Shown here: one piece after another, positions 20,799-62,495 of the stretch
Layout: each line of letters starts with the position of its first letter
How positions within the stretch are numbered: the stretch's first letter is position 1
From: a bacterium
GTDB taxonomy: Bacteria > Patescibacteriota > Microgenomatia > Daviesbacterales > UBA10151
Assembly (NCBI GenBank): GCA_021786105.1
Contig: JAJYNW010000010.1
Location: forward strand, 1-64,000
DNA: 64,000 bases
Direction: 5' to 3'
Notes under the pieces: generated by a model
Told to the model about the DNA's origin: nothing
Database searches by the model: none
What the model saw: the letters and a program-made list of their open reading frames with translations, nothing else
Program-made: the position numbers and the translations under genes

Positions 20799-20878
20799 GT
20801 CATCCTGAGCAATGAGCGAAGGATCTTCCATGGTGACGGAAGATTCCTCACCCCGATTATATCGGGGTTCGGAATGAC
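20799..20878. repeat. REP/RPE-like palindromic element (family A), dapA-asd intergenic
   Basis: GTCATCCTGAGC...CGAAGGATCT...AGATTCC...TTCGGAATGAC. Confidence 0.8.
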
Positions 20879-20890
20879 AGGAGGAAGGGT

Positions 20891-21964
20891 ATGAAAAGGA
20901 TCTCGGTTGCAATTTTAGGCGCTACCGGCATGGTGGGCCAGCGTTTTATTACCCTTTTGGCTAGTCACCCTTGGTTTGAGGTAGTTTGTGTGGCAGCTTC
21001 CCCCAGGTCTGCCGGCAAAAAATACCAAGAAGCAGTGGAAGGTAGATGGGTAATGAAAGAGCCAATTCCGCAAAGCGTTGTTAATTTGGTTGTAAAGAGG
21101 GTGGAAGCTGATTTGGATGAAATTGCTAAAGAGGTCCCTTTAGTTTTTTCTTGCCTGGACATGGACAAGGAAAAAATTAAAGAGCTGGAAAACGCCTTTG
21201 CCGGTAAAGGCGTGGCAGTGGTTTCCAATAATTCCGCTCACCGCTGGAGTGAAGATGTGCCAATGATTATGCCGGAAATCAACCCCGATCATCTGGAATT
21301 GATTAAAACCCAACAAAAAAACCGGGGCTGGGATAAAGGTTTTATTGTGGTTAAACCAAATTGTTCAGTCCAATCTTATGTACCGCTTTTGACTCCGCTT
21401 TTAAAATTTGAGCCAAAAAAGGTAGCGGTGACAACTTTACAAGCAGTTTCCGGGGCAGGAAAAACTTTGGAGAATTGGTCGGAAATGCAGGAAAATGTGA
21501 TTCCCTTTATTGGCGGGGAAGAGGAAAAAAGCGAAAAAGAACCGATGAAAATCTGGGGTAAAATTGCAGATGGAACCGTTGTTCTAGCAGAAGGGCCGGA
21601 AATTTCTGCTACCTGTATCAGAGTGCCGGTGGAAGACGGGCATATGGCTTCGGTTACCGTGTCCTTTGCCAAAAAACCTACCCGAGAAGAAATTATCACG
21701 GCTTGGAAAAGTTTTGATCCATTGGCAGCCTTTGATCTTCCATCAGCTCCGCATCCATTTATTACAGTAATGGAGGAAGAAAATAGACCGCAAACCAAAT
21801 TGGATAGAGATTTAGGCAGTGGTATGGGAATTAGTGTGGGGAGACTCCGGGAAGATAAATTAATGGATTGGAAATTTATTGGGCTTTCACACAACACTAT
21901 CCGCGGTGCTGCCGGAGGAGCAATATTAATAGCAGAACTATTAAAAGCTAAAGGTTATATATAA
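20891..21964 (+). CDS. asd: Aspartate-semialdehyde dehydrogenase (archaeal/fungal-like branch)
   Basis: LGATGMVGQ, PEINP, KPNC, QAVSGAG, RVPVEDGH, HNTIRGAAG. Confidence 0.95.
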   Translation: MKRISVAILGATGMVGQRFITLLASHPWFEVVCVAASPRSAGKKYQEAVEGRWVMKEPIPQSVVNLVVKRVEADLDEIAKEVPLVFSCLDMDKEKIKELENAFAGKGVAVVSNNSAHRWSEDVPMIMPEINPDHLELIKTQQKNRGWDKGFIVVKPNCSVQSYVPLLTPLLKFEPKKVAVTTLQAVSGAGKTLENWSEMQENVIPFIGGEEEKSEKEPMKIWGKIADGTVVLAEGPEISATCIRVPVEDGHMASVTVSFAKKPTREEIITAWKSFDPLAAFDLPSAPHPFITVMEEENRPQTKLDRDLGSGMGISVGRLREDKLMDWKFIGLSHNTIRGAAGGAILIAELLKAKGYI

Positions 21965-21973
21965 TTTTAGAAC

Positions 21974-22049
21974 GTCATTGCGAGCGAAGCAATCTAGATA
22001 TGGGATTTATCCAACCCAGATTGCTTCGTCGCAGACTCCTCGCAACGAC
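21974..22049. repeat. Family A palindromic element, asd-dapL intergenic
   Basis: GTCATTGCGAGCGAAGCAATCT...AGATTGCTTCG...CTCGCAACGAC. Confidence 0.85.
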
Positions 22050-22062
22050 AAAAGGAAAAACT

Positions 22063-60282: not shown

Positions 60283-60311
60283 TTGACATTTGGTAGTGTA
60301 TTTAATATAAT
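60283..60311 (+). promoter_or_regulatory. Consensus sigma70 promoter for purP (probably leaderless)
   Basis: TTGACA-N17-TATAAT, ATG 5 nt downstream. Confidence 0.75.
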
Positions 60312-60316
60312 AAATT

Positions 60317-61333
60317 ATGGGAATTAAAAATTACACAATTGTAACTTTAGGTTCTCACTCCGCCCTGCAAATTTTAAAAGGGGCAAAAGACGAAGGGTTC
60401 AAAACTGCGGTCGTAGCAACTCCCAACAGAATTCCCCTTTATAAATCTTACCCAAACTTTATTGACGAAATTTTAGAGGTAAAATCCTGGAATGAGTTTC
60501 CAAAACTTGAAAGTGAGTTAGTCAAAAGAAATTGTATTGTTATTCCTCATGGATCCTTTGTGGCATATTTGGGAATGGATGAAAATAAAGAAATGAAAGT
60601 GCCTTATTTCGGAAACAAGGCAGTTTTAGATTGGGAGGAAAACCGGAAAATGCAAAGGACTTGGATGGAAGAGTCGGGGGTAAAAGTGCCGCATAGATTC
60701 AAAAGAGGAGATAAGATAGACCGGCCGGTGATTGTAAAATCCCATGGGGCCTCTGGTGGAAAAGGCTATTTTACAGCCAGAAACCAAAAAGAATTTGATG
60801 AAAAATTAAAGAAATATAATGAGGAAAAATTTATGGTTCAAGAATATGTGATCGGAGTACCGCTTTATTTTTCATTTTTCTATTCACCCTTAACAAAAAA
60901 AGTAGAAATAATGAGTATTGATAAACGGTATGAAACGAACGTTGATTCCTTAGGTAGGATTCCGGCGAAAAACCAGAGAGGGTTAAATATTGAGCCATCC
61001 TTTGAGGTGGTGGCAAATATTCCATTGGCTGTTAGGGAATCAATGTTGGCGGAGGCAGTTTCAATGGCGGAAAGGGTGGTTGAAACTTCCCGGAAACTCA
61101 TACCGGAGAAAGGCCTTTTTGGACCATTTTGTCTGGAAACAATTATTACATCAAGTGAGGAAATTTATGTAATTGAAATATCAGCTAGGATTGTTGCCGG
61201 AACTAATTTTTTCATAAATGGTTCGCCTTATACATATCTTTTGTATGATGAACCGATGTCAACAGGTAGACGGATTGCCAGAGAGATTAAAAATGCAATA
61301 AACTTAAATAAATTGAAAGAGGTGTTAGATTGA
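60317..61333 (+). CDS. purP: Archaeal-type FAICAR synthetase PurP (ATP-grasp), paralog 1
   Basis: LGSHSALQILKGAKDEGF, PHGSFVAY, GPFCLE, EISARIVAGTN, MSTGRRIAREI. Confidence 0.9.
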   Translation: MGIKNYTIVTLGSHSALQILKGAKDEGFKTAVVATPNRIPLYKSYPNFIDEILEVKSWNEFPKLESELVKRNCIVIPHGSFVAYLGMDENKEMKVPYFGNKAVLDWEENRKMQRTWMEESGVKVPHRFKRGDKIDRPVIVKSHGASGGKGYFTARNQKEFDEKLKKYNEEKFMVQEYVIGVPLYFSFFYSPLTKKVEIMSIDKRYETNVDSLGRIPAKNQRGLNIEPSFEVVANIPLAVRESMLAEAVSMAERVVETSRKLIPEKGLFGPFCLETIITSSEEIYVIEISARIVAGTNFFINGSPYTYLLYDEPMSTGRRIAREIKNAINLNKLKEVLD

Positions 61334-62418
61334 TGAATAATTACACAATTGCTGTTTTAGGTTCTCACTCTGCTTTAGACGTTTGCCGGGGTGCAAAAGA
61401 TTTAGGATTTAGGACTTTAGTGATTTGCAAAAAGGGAAGAGAAAAAACTTACAAAGATTATTATGCTTCTAATGGCAAATTAGGTTGTGTTGATGAAGTG
61501 ATTGTGCTGGATGAATTTAAAGATATTTTAAATAAAGAGATCCAAGAAGAACTCCTTAAAAAAAATTGTATTTTTGTTCCCCACCGGTCTTTTGAAGTTT
61601 ACATCAATGATTACAATGCGATTGAGAAAAAATTTAAAGTGCCGATGTTTGGGAACAGGTTCTTATTAAAAGCGGAAGAACGGGGAGTCAAACCAAACCA
61701 ATATGATTTATTGGATGCGGCCAAAATCCGCTACCCCAAACAATTTAAAAATCCGGAAAGTATTGACCGGCTTTGTATTGTTAAAGTTTTGGAAAAAGAA
61801 CGGGGATTTGAAAGGGCATTTTTCTTTGCCGAATCTTTTGAAGAGTATAAAGTGGGAGTAGCTCATGGATTGGGTCTAGGCAAGTTTACTGAGGAGCAGA
61901 TAAAAGCAGCAGTGATTGAGGAATTTATTGTGGGGGTGCAAGTAAATTTTAATTTCTTTTATTCACCAGTAAACAAACGGCTCGAACTAATTGGGACTGA
62001 TACCAGAAGGCAAACTAATATTGAGGGTTTAACTAAATTACCATCTATTTACGAAGAAGAGTTAATTAAAAAGATTGGAGTCAAATATGAAGAAGCCGGA
62101 CATATTGCGGTGACGGTTTTAGAATCACTTTTGGAAGATGCATTCGCAATGGGGGAAAGATTTGTAGAGGCTACTCAAAAAATGGTTAAGACCGGTGTGA
62201 TTGGTCCATTTGGTTTGCAAACTATGATTACGGCTGGTCCGCCTAAAAAAGAAATAATTGTTTTTGATGTTTCACCCAGAATGCCGGGGAGCCCGGGAAT
62301 TTTTGCAACTCCGTACGGTAATTATTTATATGGTGAGCATTTATCGATGGGTAAAAGAGTCGCCATGGAAATAAAGGAAGCTTTAGAGAAAGGAGAGTTA
62401 GACAAAGTTTTAACTTAA
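61333..62418 (+). CDS. PurP-like ATP-grasp protein, paralog 2
   Basis: LGSHSALDVCRGAKDLGF, PHRSF, GTDTRRQTN, FDVSPRMPGSP. Confidence 0.85.
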   Translation: MNNYTIAVLGSHSALDVCRGAKDLGFRTLVICKKGREKTYKDYYASNGKLGCVDEVIVLDEFKDILNKEIQEELLKKNCIFVPHRSFEVYINDYNAIEKKFKVPMFGNRFLLKAEERGVKPNQYDLLDAAKIRYPKQFKNPESIDRLCIVKVLEKERGFERAFFFAESFEEYKVGVAHGLGLGKFTEEQIKAAVIEEFIVGVQVNFNFFYSPVNKRLELIGTDTRRQTNIEGLTKLPSIYEEELIKKIGVKYEEAGHIAVTVLESLLEDAFAMGERFVEATQKMVKTGVIGPFGLQTMITAGPPKKEIIVFDVSPRMPGSPGIFATPYGNYLYGEHLSMGKRVAMEIKEALEKGELDKVLT

Positions 62419-62424
62419 CATATT

Positions 62425-62495
62425 GTCATTCTGAGGCGTAGCCGAAGAATCTCAAGATTTAGTCCAGAGATCCTTCACTAATCGTTCAGGATGAC
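62425..62495. repeat. Family A element between purP2 and purH
   Basis: GTCATTCTGAG...GAAGAATCTC...GAGATCCTTCAC...TTCAGGATGAC. Confidence 0.85.

What the first reader, a model, noticed from the sequence alone, without database searches (positions are those of the whole stretch)
20799..62495. REP/RPE-like palindromic family A is translated inside essential enzymes
Seen: GTCATT(G/C)...GAG...(G/A)ATCT / AGAT...ATGAC elements occur between genes (20799, 21974, 33399, 35636, 45542, 62425) and in frame within coding sequences: purL (full 72 bp, VILSTAKNLEINEFRDPSLIVQDD), cysS (33 bp, VIASPEGVRQS), purA (33 bp, [11 protein letters not shown]), the cmk tail (VIANEVKQS) and the dcd N-terminus (KILKQVQDD, 24577-24602). 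The purL and purP-purH copies share 31 identical bp, which suggests recent spread. Established: Rickettsia palindromic elements insert in frame in the same way, and REPs are mobilised by RAYT HUH nucleases. No such mobiliser is visible in this window. Inference: an active selfish micro-element is adding surface loops to housekeeping proteins.
Basis: partly seen in the sequence, partly recalled or inferred. Interest (0 to 1): 0.75.

Follow-up and report, generated by a model that had tools for sequence, protein, structure and literature searches.

The report
Hairpin repeats translated inside housekeeping genes
A small hairpin-forming DNA repeat, from a family already known in Rickettsia and Neisseria and linked to a tiny DNA-cutting enzyme, is scattered through this ultra-small bacterium's genome and is read through as extra loops in about two dozen working genes, which is a known phenomenon seen here in a new host.

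Summary
The window holds 15 clear half-units of one hairpin family, (T/C)GTC-AT-stem...stem-AT-CT. They lie between genes and in frame in cysS, purL, purA, the cmk tail and the dcd N-terminus. Genome-wide I count 98 half-units (70 units). Of these, 25 units lie in long ORFs with Pfam domains, including UvrA, PolA, RecF, RecG, DNA ligase and tRNA synthetases. Congeners lack them, share them, or carry a different palindrome at the same site, so they are insertions and not ancestral coding sequence.

The family is the published CGTC/TGTC-tagged REP superfamily (Di Nocera 2013). That superfamily includes Rickettsia RPE-4/-6 and Neisseria dRS3, and its intragenic copies are already described.

The RAYT idea fails. 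The four RAYT-like genes here have their own, different flanking hairpins and do not track element abundance. Instead, two 95-aa GIY-YIG genes outside the window are bracketed by these hairpins, like NTS-ssnA-NTS (Chenal 2025). Such genes occur in 14 of 15 element-rich relatives against 2 of 16 element-poor ones. Whether the nuclease moves the hairpins is not shown.

This scan has reported the same kind of element on other DNA many times.

Verdict: a new member of a known kind, of moderate-to-low interest.

The parts
20799..20878 (.). Inverted dimer with tags outward. Arms are 20799-20826 (+, ATCCT stem) and 20841-20878 (-, ATTCC stem). It fills the dapA|asd spacer.
   Evidence: flanking genes by Pfam
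21974..22049 (.). Inverted dimer between asd and an aminotransferase gene. Arms are 21974-21995 (+) and 22018-22049 (-, head GTCGT, 1 mismatch).
24577..24602 (-). Single half-unit with 1 stem mismatch, in frame in the N-terminal extension of Dcd (KILKQVQDD). The dcd ATG at 24555 lies upstream of it.
   Evidence: G018 has the same ATG and another half-unit at the same place. The DCD domain starts after it.
33399..33423 (-). Single half-unit of the perfect-stem 25-nt subtype (8-bp stem, CC tail), 8 nt upstream of the tig start codon.
35593..35670 (.). Dimer between yqeY and ybeY. The left arm (35593-35620) is degenerate and overlaps the yqeY stop. The right arm is 35636-35670 (-). The real ybeY start is the ATG after the element.
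   Evidence: In G018 the two genes abut (TAATATG) with no element.
44578..44610 (+). Single half-unit (ATTGC stem, inner CCCCGAAGGGG hairpin), in frame in cysS: VIASPEGVRQS, residues 332-342.
   Evidence: In the AF2 model it lies in a loop between helices 308-326 and 337-352, and the pLDDT of block 331-340 is 56.
45542..45587 (.). Degenerate, rearranged remnant: a truncated reverse arm followed by a truncated forward arm.
   Evidence: read by eye
46372..46452 (.). Inverted dimer. The left arm (46372-46398) is translated as the Cmk C-terminal tail VIANEVKQSGSG*. The right arm (46420-46452, head GCCAT) precedes the RBS of the M16 peptidase gene.
   Evidence: In G018 cmk ends ...INASN* and overlaps the next gene, with no element.
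54891..54962 (.). Inverted dimer (ATTCT + ATCCT arms), 72 bp, in frame in the purL linker: VILSTAKNLEINEFRDPSLIVQDD.
59169..59201 (-). Single half-unit (ATTGC stem), in frame in pur[12 protein letters not shown].
   Evidence: Element boundaries are also marked by the loose ends of many community contigs at 59169/59202.
62425..62495 (.). Inverted dimer between purP and purH. Its right arm and flanks (62466-62496) are identical to purL 54933-54963.
   Evidence: In G018 the genes abut with no element.
43585..44952 (+). cysS, host gene, intact ORF
   Evidence: Pfam tRNA-synt_1e, 383 bits
45712..46410 (+). cmk, host gene whose tail is extended by the element
   Evidence: Pfam Cytidylate_kin
53250..56036 (+). 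purL, host gene, intact ORF. It also carries two copies of a second palindrome family.
   Evidence: Pfam AIRS/AIRS_C
58947..60260 (-). purA, host gene, intact ORF
   Evidence: Pfam Adenylsucc_synt, 574 bits
24555..25250 (+). dcd, host gene, counted from the ATG that is conserved in G018

Best explanation
Family A is a lineage of the CGTC/TGTC-tagged REP superfamily. These are the hairpin motifs called NTS/SRM when they accompany Ssn nucleases.

Anatomy (shown). Each half-unit is a single-strand hairpin. It has an unpaired (T/C)GTC tag and a stem that opens with A-T and T-A. Usually a tandem GA/GA internal loop and a variable inner hairpin follow, then a short CT or CC tail. Two half-units with tags outward form a dimer.

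The same two-hairpin frame brackets two 95-aa single-domain GIY-YIG genes elsewhere in this genome (shown). The gene-less dimers and monomers therefore look like MITE-like derivatives of hairpin-nuclease-hairpin cassettes (inferred).

Spread (inferred, not shown). The nuclease recognises the tagged hairpin in single-stranded DNA and cuts next to it. This was shown for Neisseria and Wolbachia homologues by Chenal et al. 2025. Repair or recombination at such cuts then copies hairpins into new or already occupied sites.

Fate of copies. Copies that land in frame in tolerant loops, linkers or termini of proteins survive and are read through as 8-27 extra residues. Reading through is inferred from intact ORFs and is not shown by proteomics.
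For: Hairpin with covariation:
- Stems ATTGC, ATCCT, ATTCT, ATTCC and ATCCC each occur with their exact complement.
- The base before GTC is T in 80, C in 12 and A in 6 of 98 half-units.
- Neighbouring pairs within 100 nt: 28 have tags outward, 0 are tails-outward and 1 is tandem.

Family identity:
- The features match Di Nocera 2013 (PMC3733652; I read sections 6, 14, 15, 16 and supplement 3). These are a TGTC variant of the tag, AT at the stem base, inverted dimers that are mostly heterodimers, and intragenic copies in uvrA, polA, ligase and aaRS genes.
- Encoded peptides nearly coincide with R. conorii and E. litoralis CGTC-1 entries.

Coding copies:
- 29 of 70 units lie in ORFs of at least 190 aa. 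25 of those 29 hosts have Pfam domains.

Insertion polymorphism:
- cysS of the two closest relatives lacks it.
- RecF, UvrA, FemAB, YchF and two other sites are gaps in G018.
- Three intergenic sites are empty in G018.

Nuclease link:
- GIY-YIG ORFs at C3:5300-5587 and C9:18117-18401 are bracketed by inverted half-units.
- In 12 of 12 Ssn-like loci (G000 plus 11 relatives) a '+' half-unit lies 2-81 nt to the left. In 11 of 12 a '-' half-unit lies to the right.
- 14 of 15 genomes with at least 25 pattern matches have an Ssn-like hit of at least 90 bits. Only 2 of 16 with 18 or fewer do. Fisher p = 7e-6, but the genomes are kin and so not independent, and both cut-offs were set after seeing natural gaps in the data.
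- The same gene-between-hairpins layout occurs in Chryseobacterium, Tisiphia, Chloroflexus and Pedobacter.
- The architecture and the nuclease activity of homologues come from Chenal 2025 (PMC11893778; abstract, sections 7 and 10, and passages).
Against: - No experiment or read-level evidence here shows movement. The contigs I laid showed no excision or empty alleles.
- G012 (100% complete) has 73 pattern matches but no strong Ssn-like hit. G004 and G011 have such a gene but few matches.
- The commonest stems in this genome (ATCCT 25, ATTCT 16 of 98) bracket neither of its two cassettes, whose arms are ATTGC/ATTGC and ATGTT/ATTCC.
- The published SRM search pattern, as printed in the paper's text, matches only 5 of 98 half-units.
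- I could not test homology of the two proteins to N. meningitidis SsnA or to cd10448. NCBIfam gives only a weak sub-threshold hit and PDB gives none.
- GIY-YIG enzymes are not known to rejoin DNA, so a transposase-like role is conjecture.
- Flanks of empty sites are too diverged to define a target or a duplication.
- Translation is inferred only. No RNA holder was listed.
Confidence: 0.75

Rival explanations
1. They are classical REP/REPIN elements mobilised in trans by the RAYT-like HUH (Y1) tyrosine transposases of the genome.
For: The genome has four RAYT-like genes of 216-231 aa (PF01797, 33-36 bits; NF047646, 59.7 bits, below its cut-off of 80) and one IS200-type TnpA. Like REPs, the elements are tagged hairpins that form inverted dimers.
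Against: - No half-unit lies within 3 kb of any Y1 gene.
- Each RAYT-like gene is flanked on both sides by a different hairpin, (C/T)(C/T)ACC(T/C)...GGT(A/G)G. The IS200-type gene is flanked by CACGGGCTTACGCCCGTG.
- The tag is (T/C)GTC, not GTAG.
- Y1 genes are present in 14 of 15 element-rich and 12 of 16 element-poor relatives (p = 0.33). G003 and G010 have 8 Y1 matches each with no elements above control. G027 has 34 matches and no Y1.
- Di Nocera 2013 also found no transposase next to CGTC REPs.
Confidence: 0.05
2. The hairpins are kept mainly for a host function and are not selfish spreaders. For example, they could be recognition sites through which the Ssn nuclease restricts or trims incoming single-stranded DNA during uptake, as in Neisseria. 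They could also be RNA hairpins that stabilise or separate cistrons. On this view the in-frame copies are by-products.
For: [quoted passage not shown]
- Intergenic copies sit exactly between co-directional genes, just before ribosome-binding sites.
- Hairpin structure is conserved through compensatory stem changes.
Against: - Abundance differs sharply between congeners (2 to 133 matches).
- Copies are present or absent at orthologous sites.
- About a third of units lie inside coding regions, where a regulatory role is unlikely.
- Rfam has no matching family.
- This rival is not exclusive of the best explanation.
Confidence: 0.15
3. The in-frame segments are ancestral or convergently evolved coding sequence that merely resembles the intergenic repeats. 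They are not insertions.
For: - In distant PDB homologues the CysS and PurL regions have similar length, so alignment does not show a clean gap.
- The purA, Wzy-type ligase, DNA-ligase and dcd copies are shared with G018.
Against: - 17 of 22 aligned CysS sequences carry W-(D/E)EPKIGCA(E/Q)-(F/Y)E or a close variant of it in place of the element, including all four of the relatives most like the window's CysS (G015, G018, G004, G008).
- Six intragenic sites are plain gaps in G018.
- The DNA of in-frame copies is identical or nearly identical to intergenic copies (31 of 31 bases).
- All three reading frames and both orientations of the same DNA are used.
Confidence: 0.02

Closest known systems
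CGTC-tagged REP superfamily (families CGTC-1 to -4; Di Nocera, De Gregorio and Rocco 2013, BMC Genomics 14:522). It includes Rickettsia conorii RPE-6 (CGTC-1) and RPE-4 (CGTC-4) and Neisseria dRS3.
   Same: - A tag of CGTC, often TGTC.
- A stem that opens with AT.
- A short tail.
- Inverted dimers that are mostly heterodimers.
- No adjacent transposase.
- In-frame intragenic copies in repair genes and tRNA synthetases.
- The 25-nt subtype here (8-bp stem, 4-nt loop, CCA tail) encodes almost the same peptides as the R. conorii CGTC-1 entries.
   Different: - Most copies here have a 5-bp outer stem, a GA/GA internal loop and a variable inner hairpin (26-48 nt). The described forms have an 8-9 bp stem and a 4-5 nt loop.
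- The tail is mostly CTC or CTT.
- The host phylum (Patescibacteria) is not among the 5 phyla listed.
- The share inside long ORFs is high (29 of 70 units).
NTS/SRM hairpins and Ssn (SsnA) GIY-YIG single-strand nucleases (Chenal et al. 2025, Nat Commun 16:2388)
   Same: - A roughly 95-aa single-domain GIY-YIG gene bracketed by inverted (C/T)GTCAT hairpins, like NTS-ssnA-NTS.
- Genome-level co-occurrence of gene and hairpins.
- Many gene-less copies.
- The GIY, YIG and Glu positions line up with Y6, Y17 and E64 of SsnA, offset by one residue. This is my reading of the sequences against the mutants named.
   Different: - Nuclease activity, cd10448 membership and homology to SsnA are untested here.
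- The printed SRM pattern matches only 5 of 98 half-units.
- The paper's main text does not mention Patescibacteria or in-frame copies (term search; its supplements were not read).
REP/REPIN elements with RAYT (GTAG-tagged REPs)
   Same: Tagged single-strand hairpins, inverted doublets, many copies, and occasional intragenic copies.
   Different: The tag is different. The RAYT-like genes of this genome carry other flanking hairpins, and there is no co-occurrence with them.
Rickettsia palindromic element RPE-1 (Ogata et al. 2000; recalled from memory and cited in Di Nocera 2013)
   Same: In-frame insertion of a palindromic repeat into conserved proteins of a small-genome bacterium, tolerated in loops.
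   Different: RPE-1 is a longer element of another sequence family. I made no sequence comparison with it here.

Membership tests
CGTC-tagged REP superfamily (Di Nocera 2013) | Unpaired terminal tag CGTC, often changed to TGTC | tested here: met
   The base before GTC is T in 80, C in 12, A in 6 and G in 0 of 98 half-units. The paper states the TGTC variant.
CGTC-tagged REP superfamily (Di Nocera 2013) | The stem opens with complementary A and T in first and second position | tested here: met
   All 98 do, but my scan required GTCAT...ATC. The independent support is that 111 of 1389 GTCAT sites have the complementary partner, against 17 and 28 in controls.
CGTC-tagged REP superfamily (Di Nocera 2013) | Stem of 8-9 bp, loop of 4-5 nt | tested here: inconclusive
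   The 25-nt subtype (13 of 98) fits 8 bp / 4 nt. The 26-nt class (37 of 98) fits 8-9 positions only if two G-A mismatches are allowed in part of the copies. Longer copies have an extra inner hairpin.
CGTC-tagged REP superfamily (Di Nocera 2013) | Short unpaired tail, consensus CCA | tested here: inconclusive
   Tails are CTC 40, CTT 21, CCA 15, CTA 10 and others 12, of 98. A tail is always present, but the published consensus holds only in the perfect-stem subtype.
CGTC-tagged REP superfamily (Di Nocera 2013) | Mostly one kind of inverted dimer; the other orientations are rare | tested here: met
   28 pairs have tags outward, 0 have the opposite inverted arrangement and 1 is tandem. 26 of the 28 are heterodimers by stem type. 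I did not see which arrangement the paper calls 'HH'.
CGTC-tagged REP superfamily (Di Nocera 2013) | Sequence likeness to published members | tested here: met
   VIPANAGI, DPDIRRDD and SHPGLDPGS here correspond to VIPAKAGI and DSRFRRND (R. conorii CGTC-1) and RHPGLDPGS (E. litoralis) in supplement 3. The KQS and QDD peptides of the GA-loop subtype are not in that file.
SRM/NTS-Ssn system (Chenal 2025) | Small single-domain GIY-YIG protein | tested here: met
   PF01541 scores 64.9 and 59.5 bits for ORFs of 95 and 94 aa. The nearest Atlas clusters are 95-aa GIY-YIG proteins.
SRM/NTS-Ssn system (Chenal 2025) | The gene is flanked on both sides by inverted copies of the hairpin | tested here: met
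   This holds for C3 and C9 of G000. The left arm is present in 12 of 12 loci and the right arm in 11 of 12. It also holds in 4 genomes of other phyla.
SRM/NTS-Ssn system (Chenal 2025) | Protein belongs to CDD cd10448, or is homologous to N. meningitidis SsnA | not testable with these tools
   No CDD library and no SsnA sequence were on hand. NCBIfam gives only a sub-threshold TIGR01453 hit. PDB gives no hit.
SRM/NTS-Ssn system (Chenal 2025) | Hairpins match the published degenerate SRM search sequence | tested here: not met
   Only 5 of 98 half-units match (8 hits genome-wide, 3 in the reversed control). The pattern was transcribed from the paper's text. It is a search aid built from 29 genomes of 4 phyla, not a definition.
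SRM/NTS-Ssn system (Chenal 2025) | Genomes rich in hairpins carry the gene | tested here: met
   14 of 15 rich against 2 of 16 poor relatives. Spearman rho is 0.77 between counts. Cut-offs were set post hoc and the genomes are kin.
SRM/NTS-Ssn system (Chenal 2025) | Site-specific cleavage of single-stranded DNA next to the hairpin | not testable with these tools
   Needs a biochemical assay.
REP/REPIN-RAYT | GTAG (GT[AG]G) tag at the foot of the hairpin | tested here: not met
   The tag is (T/C)GTC.
REP/REPIN-RAYT | The RAYT gene is flanked by the same REP family | tested here: not met
   No half-unit lies within 3 kb. Other hairpins flank the four RAYT-like genes.

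The most novel reading that the evidence does not exclude
The hairpin-GIY-YIG-hairpin cassettes are true mobile elements of a homing type. In this model the nuclease nicks single-stranded DNA at existing hairpins, and repair copies another hairpin (or the whole cassette) into that place.

This would explain three things seen here:
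- The same protein sites (PurL linker, CysS loop, PolA, MurB, PurA) are occupied by different hairpin variants in different congeners.
- Hairpins are found nested in hairpins.
- One cysS insertion allele is shared by non-sister species.

If so, Daviesbacteria congeners with 2 to 133 copies would be a natural experiment that finally identifies the mobiliser of CGTC REPs/RPE-4/-6. They would also show a nuclease-driven route by which loops of core enzymes are continually rewritten.
Probability: 0.35. Interest if true: 0.6.

Novelty: new member of a known kind. Interest (0 to 1): 0.3.

Why it matters
This finding puts a CPR (Patescibacteria) genome among the hosts of CGTC REPs/SRM hairpins. It shows about two dozen conserved enzymes carrying translated hairpin inserts in a 1-Mb genome.

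It also gives comparative support, outside the taxa studied so far, for pairing these hairpins with small GIY-YIG (Ssn-like) genes rather than with RAYTs. The evidence is presence/absence among congeners and conserved bracketing.

The commonest subtype here has a GA internal loop and the ends GTCATTGCGAG...GCAATCT. It occurs in many phyla yet escapes the published SRM search pattern, so surveys based on that pattern probably undercount the system.

For annotation: these repeats break assemblies, create spurious small ORFs, and shift apparent gene starts and ends (ybeY, cmk, dcd).

Tried and rejected
- **Rfam**, gathering thresholds, on the window: 0 matches.
- **Literature search by DNA and peptide strings**: 23 papers, and all 20 listed are unrelated by title, so I take the matches for chance hits such as primers.
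- **Relaxed scan** allowing 2 penalties in the window: 69 hits against 57-71 in shuffles, so it is non-specific and I dropped it. Only zero-penalty hits and three one-mismatch hits with a GA were kept.
- **Target-site duplication**: codon alignments of filled against empty sites with G018 (about 79% aa identity) are too diverged to call one. A possible CATAT repeat at purP|purH is a single case.
- **Recombination patch in cysS**: identity to G013/G007 rises to 0.87-0.94 at the element. But the whole 3' third of the gene is conserved among all congeners, so this is inconclusive.
- **Sequencing runs**: no RNA holder was listed. Only Logan contigs could be laid. They showed no joint that skips an element. 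They show only that contigs break at elements and that many other community contigs share the 33-bp purA copy.
- **PDB sequence search** with the GIY-YIG protein: no hit.
- **NCBIfam**: only sub-threshold hits.
- **Published SRM pattern**: 5 of 98.
- **Earlier-findings look-up by sequence**: nothing.
- **Caldatribacterium genome**: no Ssn-like hit with my two-sequence profile.
- **Third small GIY-YIG ORF** (C14:30962-31276): another subtype, with no flanking hairpins seen.

Full report
**1. Observation**

- The motif GTCATTSCGAG with at most one mismatch occurs 11 times in the window. Shuffles give 1.01 on average and at most 4.
- The window is contig C6:1-64000 of a 1.04-Mb, 26-contig genome with 40% G+C.
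- Earlier notes of this scan call the genome Candidatus Daviesbacteria, a CPR/Patescibacteria lineage. I did not check the taxon name.

**2. Anatomy**

The unit is a half-element with this layout: (T/C)GTC, then A-T-N-N-N, usually GA(G/A), a variable inner part that is often its own mini-hairpin (such as GCGAAGC or CCCCGAAGGGG), often GA again, then the exact complement N'N'N'-A-T, and a CT or CC tail.
- The stem occurs in several versions (ATCCT 25, ATTGC 23, ATTCC 16, ATTCT 16, ATCCC 12 of 98), each with its own complement. The hairpin is therefore kept through compensatory changes.
- Of 1389 GTCAT sites in the genome, 111 have the complementary stem plus ATC within 55 nt. Two non-complementary controls give 17 and 28.
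- After dropping 13 weak hits I kept 98 half-units.
- These form 70 units: 28 inverted dimers and 42 monomers. Some monomers are dimers whose second arm is degenerate.
- Neighbouring pairs are always arranged tags outward: 28 against 0 for the opposite inverted order. 26 of the 28 combine two different stem types.
- The base before GTC is T in 80, C in 12 and A in 6.

**3. Coding copies**

- 36 of 70 units lie in ORFs of at least 80 aa with at least 30 nt of ORF on each side. 29 lie in ORFs of at least 190 aa.
- Of those 29 host ORFs, 25 have Pfam domains. 22 of the 26 scanned do; the four without are L174, L178, L183 and L185.
- Hosts include an ATP-dependent DNA ligase, CarB, RecF, PolA, a CCA-adding/poly(A) polymerase type enzyme, SpoU, RecG, GlmS, MurT, PheT, a class-I aaRS, UvrA, 6PGDH, FemAB, MurB, YchF, an M1 peptidase and a Wzy-type ligase.
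- Two of the 25 may lie upstream of the true start: the L4 N-terminal extension and a prepilin-like leader.
- Both orientations and all reading frames of the element are used. In Pfam-supported hosts the sense orientation is read in phase 0, 1 and 2 in 11, 6 and 1 cases. The antisense orientation is read in 2, 6 and 9 cases.

**4. They are insertions, but not always clean ones**

*CysS.* 17 of 22 aligned CysS sequences from relatives, including those of the four relatives most like the window's CysS (G015, G018, G004, G008), read W-(D/E)EPKIGCA(E/Q)-(F/Y)E or a close variant of it. The window reads W-PSS-VIASPEGVRQS-YY, so 33 nt were replaced by 48 nt. Two more distant congeners (G013, G007) carry almost the same insert and flanks. 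G001 carries a different dimer at the same place.

*PurL.* Each of five congeners has a different palindromic insert at the linker site.

*Whole-genome comparison with G018* (fetched). Of the 29 long-ORF units, 4 had no G018 hit and 25 were aligned. This is my reading of the alignments:
- Plain gaps in G018: RecF, UvrA, FemAB, YchF and two unnamed ORFs.
- The same element shared: PurA (with a longer, nested inner part), the Wzy-type ligase and DNA ligase.
- Another palindromic insert at the same position: PurL, PolA, MurB, RecG, GlmS, MurT, M1 peptidase and others.

*Intergenic sites.* The purP|purH, cmk|M16 and yqeY|ybeY copies are absent in G018. There the genes abut or overlap.

*Termini.* The Cmk tail (VIANEVKQSGSG) is an extension relative to G018. 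The Dcd N-terminal extension has a conserved ATG upstream of an element in both genomes.

*Structure.* An AlphaFold2 model of CysS (mean pLDDT 86.5) places residues 332-342 in the loop between helices 308-326 and 337-352. The pLDDT of that block is 56. For PurA and PurL only alignments to PDB homologues show that the site is a variable region.

**5. What family**

The features match the CGTC-tagged REPs of Di Nocera et al. 2013 (PMC3733652). I read the abstract, sections 6, 14, 15 and 16, and part 2 of supplement 3. The paper describes:
- a CGTC tag that is often TGTC;
- a stem opening with AT, and a short tail;
- inverted dimers that are often heterodimers;
- no adjacent transposase;
- in-frame copies in uvrA, uvrB, polA, ligase and tRNA-synthetase genes.

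It equates R. conorii RPE-6 and RPE-4 with CGTC-1 and CGTC-4, and Neisseria dRS3 with CGTC-1.

Peptides in its supplement (VIPAKAGI, DSRFRRND, RHPGLDPGS) nearly coincide with ours (VIPANAGI, DPDIRRDD, SHPGLDPGS). The GA-loop subtype peptides (..KQS..QDD) are not in that file.

A scan of one genome per species found GTCATTGCGAG-N8-30-GAAGCAATCT in at least 125 loci. Hosts include Chloroflexota, Bacteroidota, Planctomycetota, Omnitrophota, Patescibacteria, Desulfobacterota and Proteobacteria.

**6. Which enzyme**

*RAYT is not it.* The genome has one IS200-type TnpA and four RAYT-like genes.
- None lies within 3 kb of a half-unit.
- Each has its own, different flanking hairpins.

*The Ssn lead.* Earlier notes of this scan pointed to Ssn nucleases, so I read Chenal et al. 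2025 (PMC11893778; abstract, sections 7 and 10, and passages).
- SsnA is a small GIY-YIG enzyme that cuts single-stranded DNA next to the hairpin NTS, CGTCATTCCCGCG..GCGGGAATC.
- Its gene is bracketed NTS-ssnA-NTS.
- 81% of genomes with more than 200 such motifs carry the gene.

*Test in this genome.* PF01541 finds three small ORFs plus UvrC, none on the window's contig. Two of them are bracketed by inverted family-A half-units with tags outward:
- C3:5300-5587, 95 aa;
- C9:18117-18401, 94 aa.

*Test in 30 relatives plus G000* (combines the counts).
- Pattern counts range from 1 to 133, against controls of 0-11.
- Strong hits (at least 90 bits) to a profile of the two proteins occur in 14 of 15 genomes with at least 25 matches. 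They occur in 2 of 16 with 18 or fewer.
- Y1_Tnp occurs in 14 of 15 and 12 of 16.
- Both cut-offs were placed at natural gaps after seeing the data, and kin are not independent.

*Bracketing.*
- In 12 of 12 fetched Ssn-like loci a '+' half-unit lies 2-81 nt to the left. In 11 of 12 a '-' half-unit lies to the right, whatever the gene's strand.
- The same layout, with GTCATTGCGAG...GCAATC arms, is found in Chryseobacterium herbae, a Tisiphia endosymbiont, Chloroflexus islandicus and Pedobacter agri. No such gene was found in the Caldatribacterium genome.

**7. How it most likely works**

*Shown here:*
- a tagged hairpin family;
- its bracketing of small GIY-YIG genes;
- co-occurrence of gene and hairpins;
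- turnover at orthologous sites;
- intact host ORFs.

*Established elsewhere:* homologues cut single-stranded DNA beside such hairpins (Chenal 2025).

*Inferred:*
- Gene-less dimers and monomers derive from the cassettes.
- Cuts at hairpins, followed by repair or recombination, spread and replace them.
- Only copies in tolerant loops, linkers and termini survive in genes, where they are translated.

*Against:*
- G012 has many copies and no strong gene hit. G004 and G011 show the reverse.
- The two cassettes of this genome do not carry the commonest stem types.
- The printed SRM pattern matches 5 of 98.
- Homology to SsnA/cd10448 could not be tested.
- The laid contigs gave no excision evidence, and no RNA data were available.

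**8. Novelty**

- In-frame REP/RPE copies, the CGTC superfamily and the Ssn link are all in print.
- A search for 'CGTC REPs/repeats/-tagged/elements' found 8 papers, none on Patescibacteria by their titles.
- A search for Patescibacteria + palindromic + repeat + intragenic gave nothing pertinent among the 15 listed.
- The Ssn paper's main text does not contain 'Patescibacteria', 'intragenic' or 'in-frame'. Its supplements were not read and may list such genomes.
- This scan has reported the same kind of element on other DNA before: 145 findings in at least 135 genomes hold the search words, and the eight shown are of this kind.
- I therefore rate this as a new member of a known kind.

Noticed in passing
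window 13163-13197 (topA), 53399-53433 and 55793-55827 (both in purL): A second palindrome family, CCACCTCGRAGGAGTYAAARCCCACCTYCGAGGTG, lies in frame in three places. It reads HLEGVKAHLRG in PurL and STSEESKPTSEV in TopA. Both PurL copies are present or absent among congeners.
   Followed up: partly
G000 C20:58066-58725, C12:11946-12641, C26:8905-9555, C14:12228-12908; solo copy at window 45639-45659: Four RAYT-like genes (216-231 aa) are each flanked on both sides by a GC-rich hairpin of the type (C/T)(C/T)ACCTCGGAGGT(A/G)G. A few solo copies exist, one of them in the window between ORF 44933-45490 and cmk.
   Followed up: partly
G000 C23:7582-8016: An IS200-type TnpA (144 aa, 114.7 bits) is flanked by CACGGGCTTACGCCCGTG hairpins and lies next to a tRNA-like stretch.
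   Followed up: no
G000 C3:5673-5719, C18:18427-18473; G018 purA (C9, about 84.4-85.1 kb): Some hairpins are nested. An ATCCT-type stem (TCCTGAGCG..CGAAGGA) sits inside the loop of an ATTGC-type half-unit. The purA copy of G018 is such a nested version of the plain copy in the window.
   Followed up: partly
window 44569-44616 against L010 and L011: The cysS insert with its non-canonical flanks (CCTTCTTCT...TATTAC) is nearly identical in G013 and G007 (62% aa identity overall). It is absent from the closest relatives G015 and G018. This could be an ancestral polymorphism or a recombination patch; it is unresolved.
   Followed up: partly
window 54880-54970 and the orthologous sites in L187-L190: The PurL linker carries a different palindromic insert in each of five congeners, so the site is a hot spot of element turnover.
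   Followed up: partly
G021:C13:15267-15349 and G021:C2:15846-16517: A relative in another family has arrays of half-unit heads at 24-nt spacing. It also has eight heads within 700 bp around its Ssn-like gene.
   Followed up: no
window 19894-24509 against G018: tblastn found no G018 counterpart of dapA, asd, the aminotransferase or ORF 23253-24509. The lysine-branch genes may be missing or unassembled in that 97%-complete relative.
   Followed up: no
window 46420-46452, 54934-54962, 59175-59198, 62447-62507: Public-run contigs of the source and of two other samples end exactly at these elements. Summed depth at the purA copy rises from about 20 to about 970, so the same 33-bp hairpin is common in many other organisms of those communities.
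   Followed up: partly
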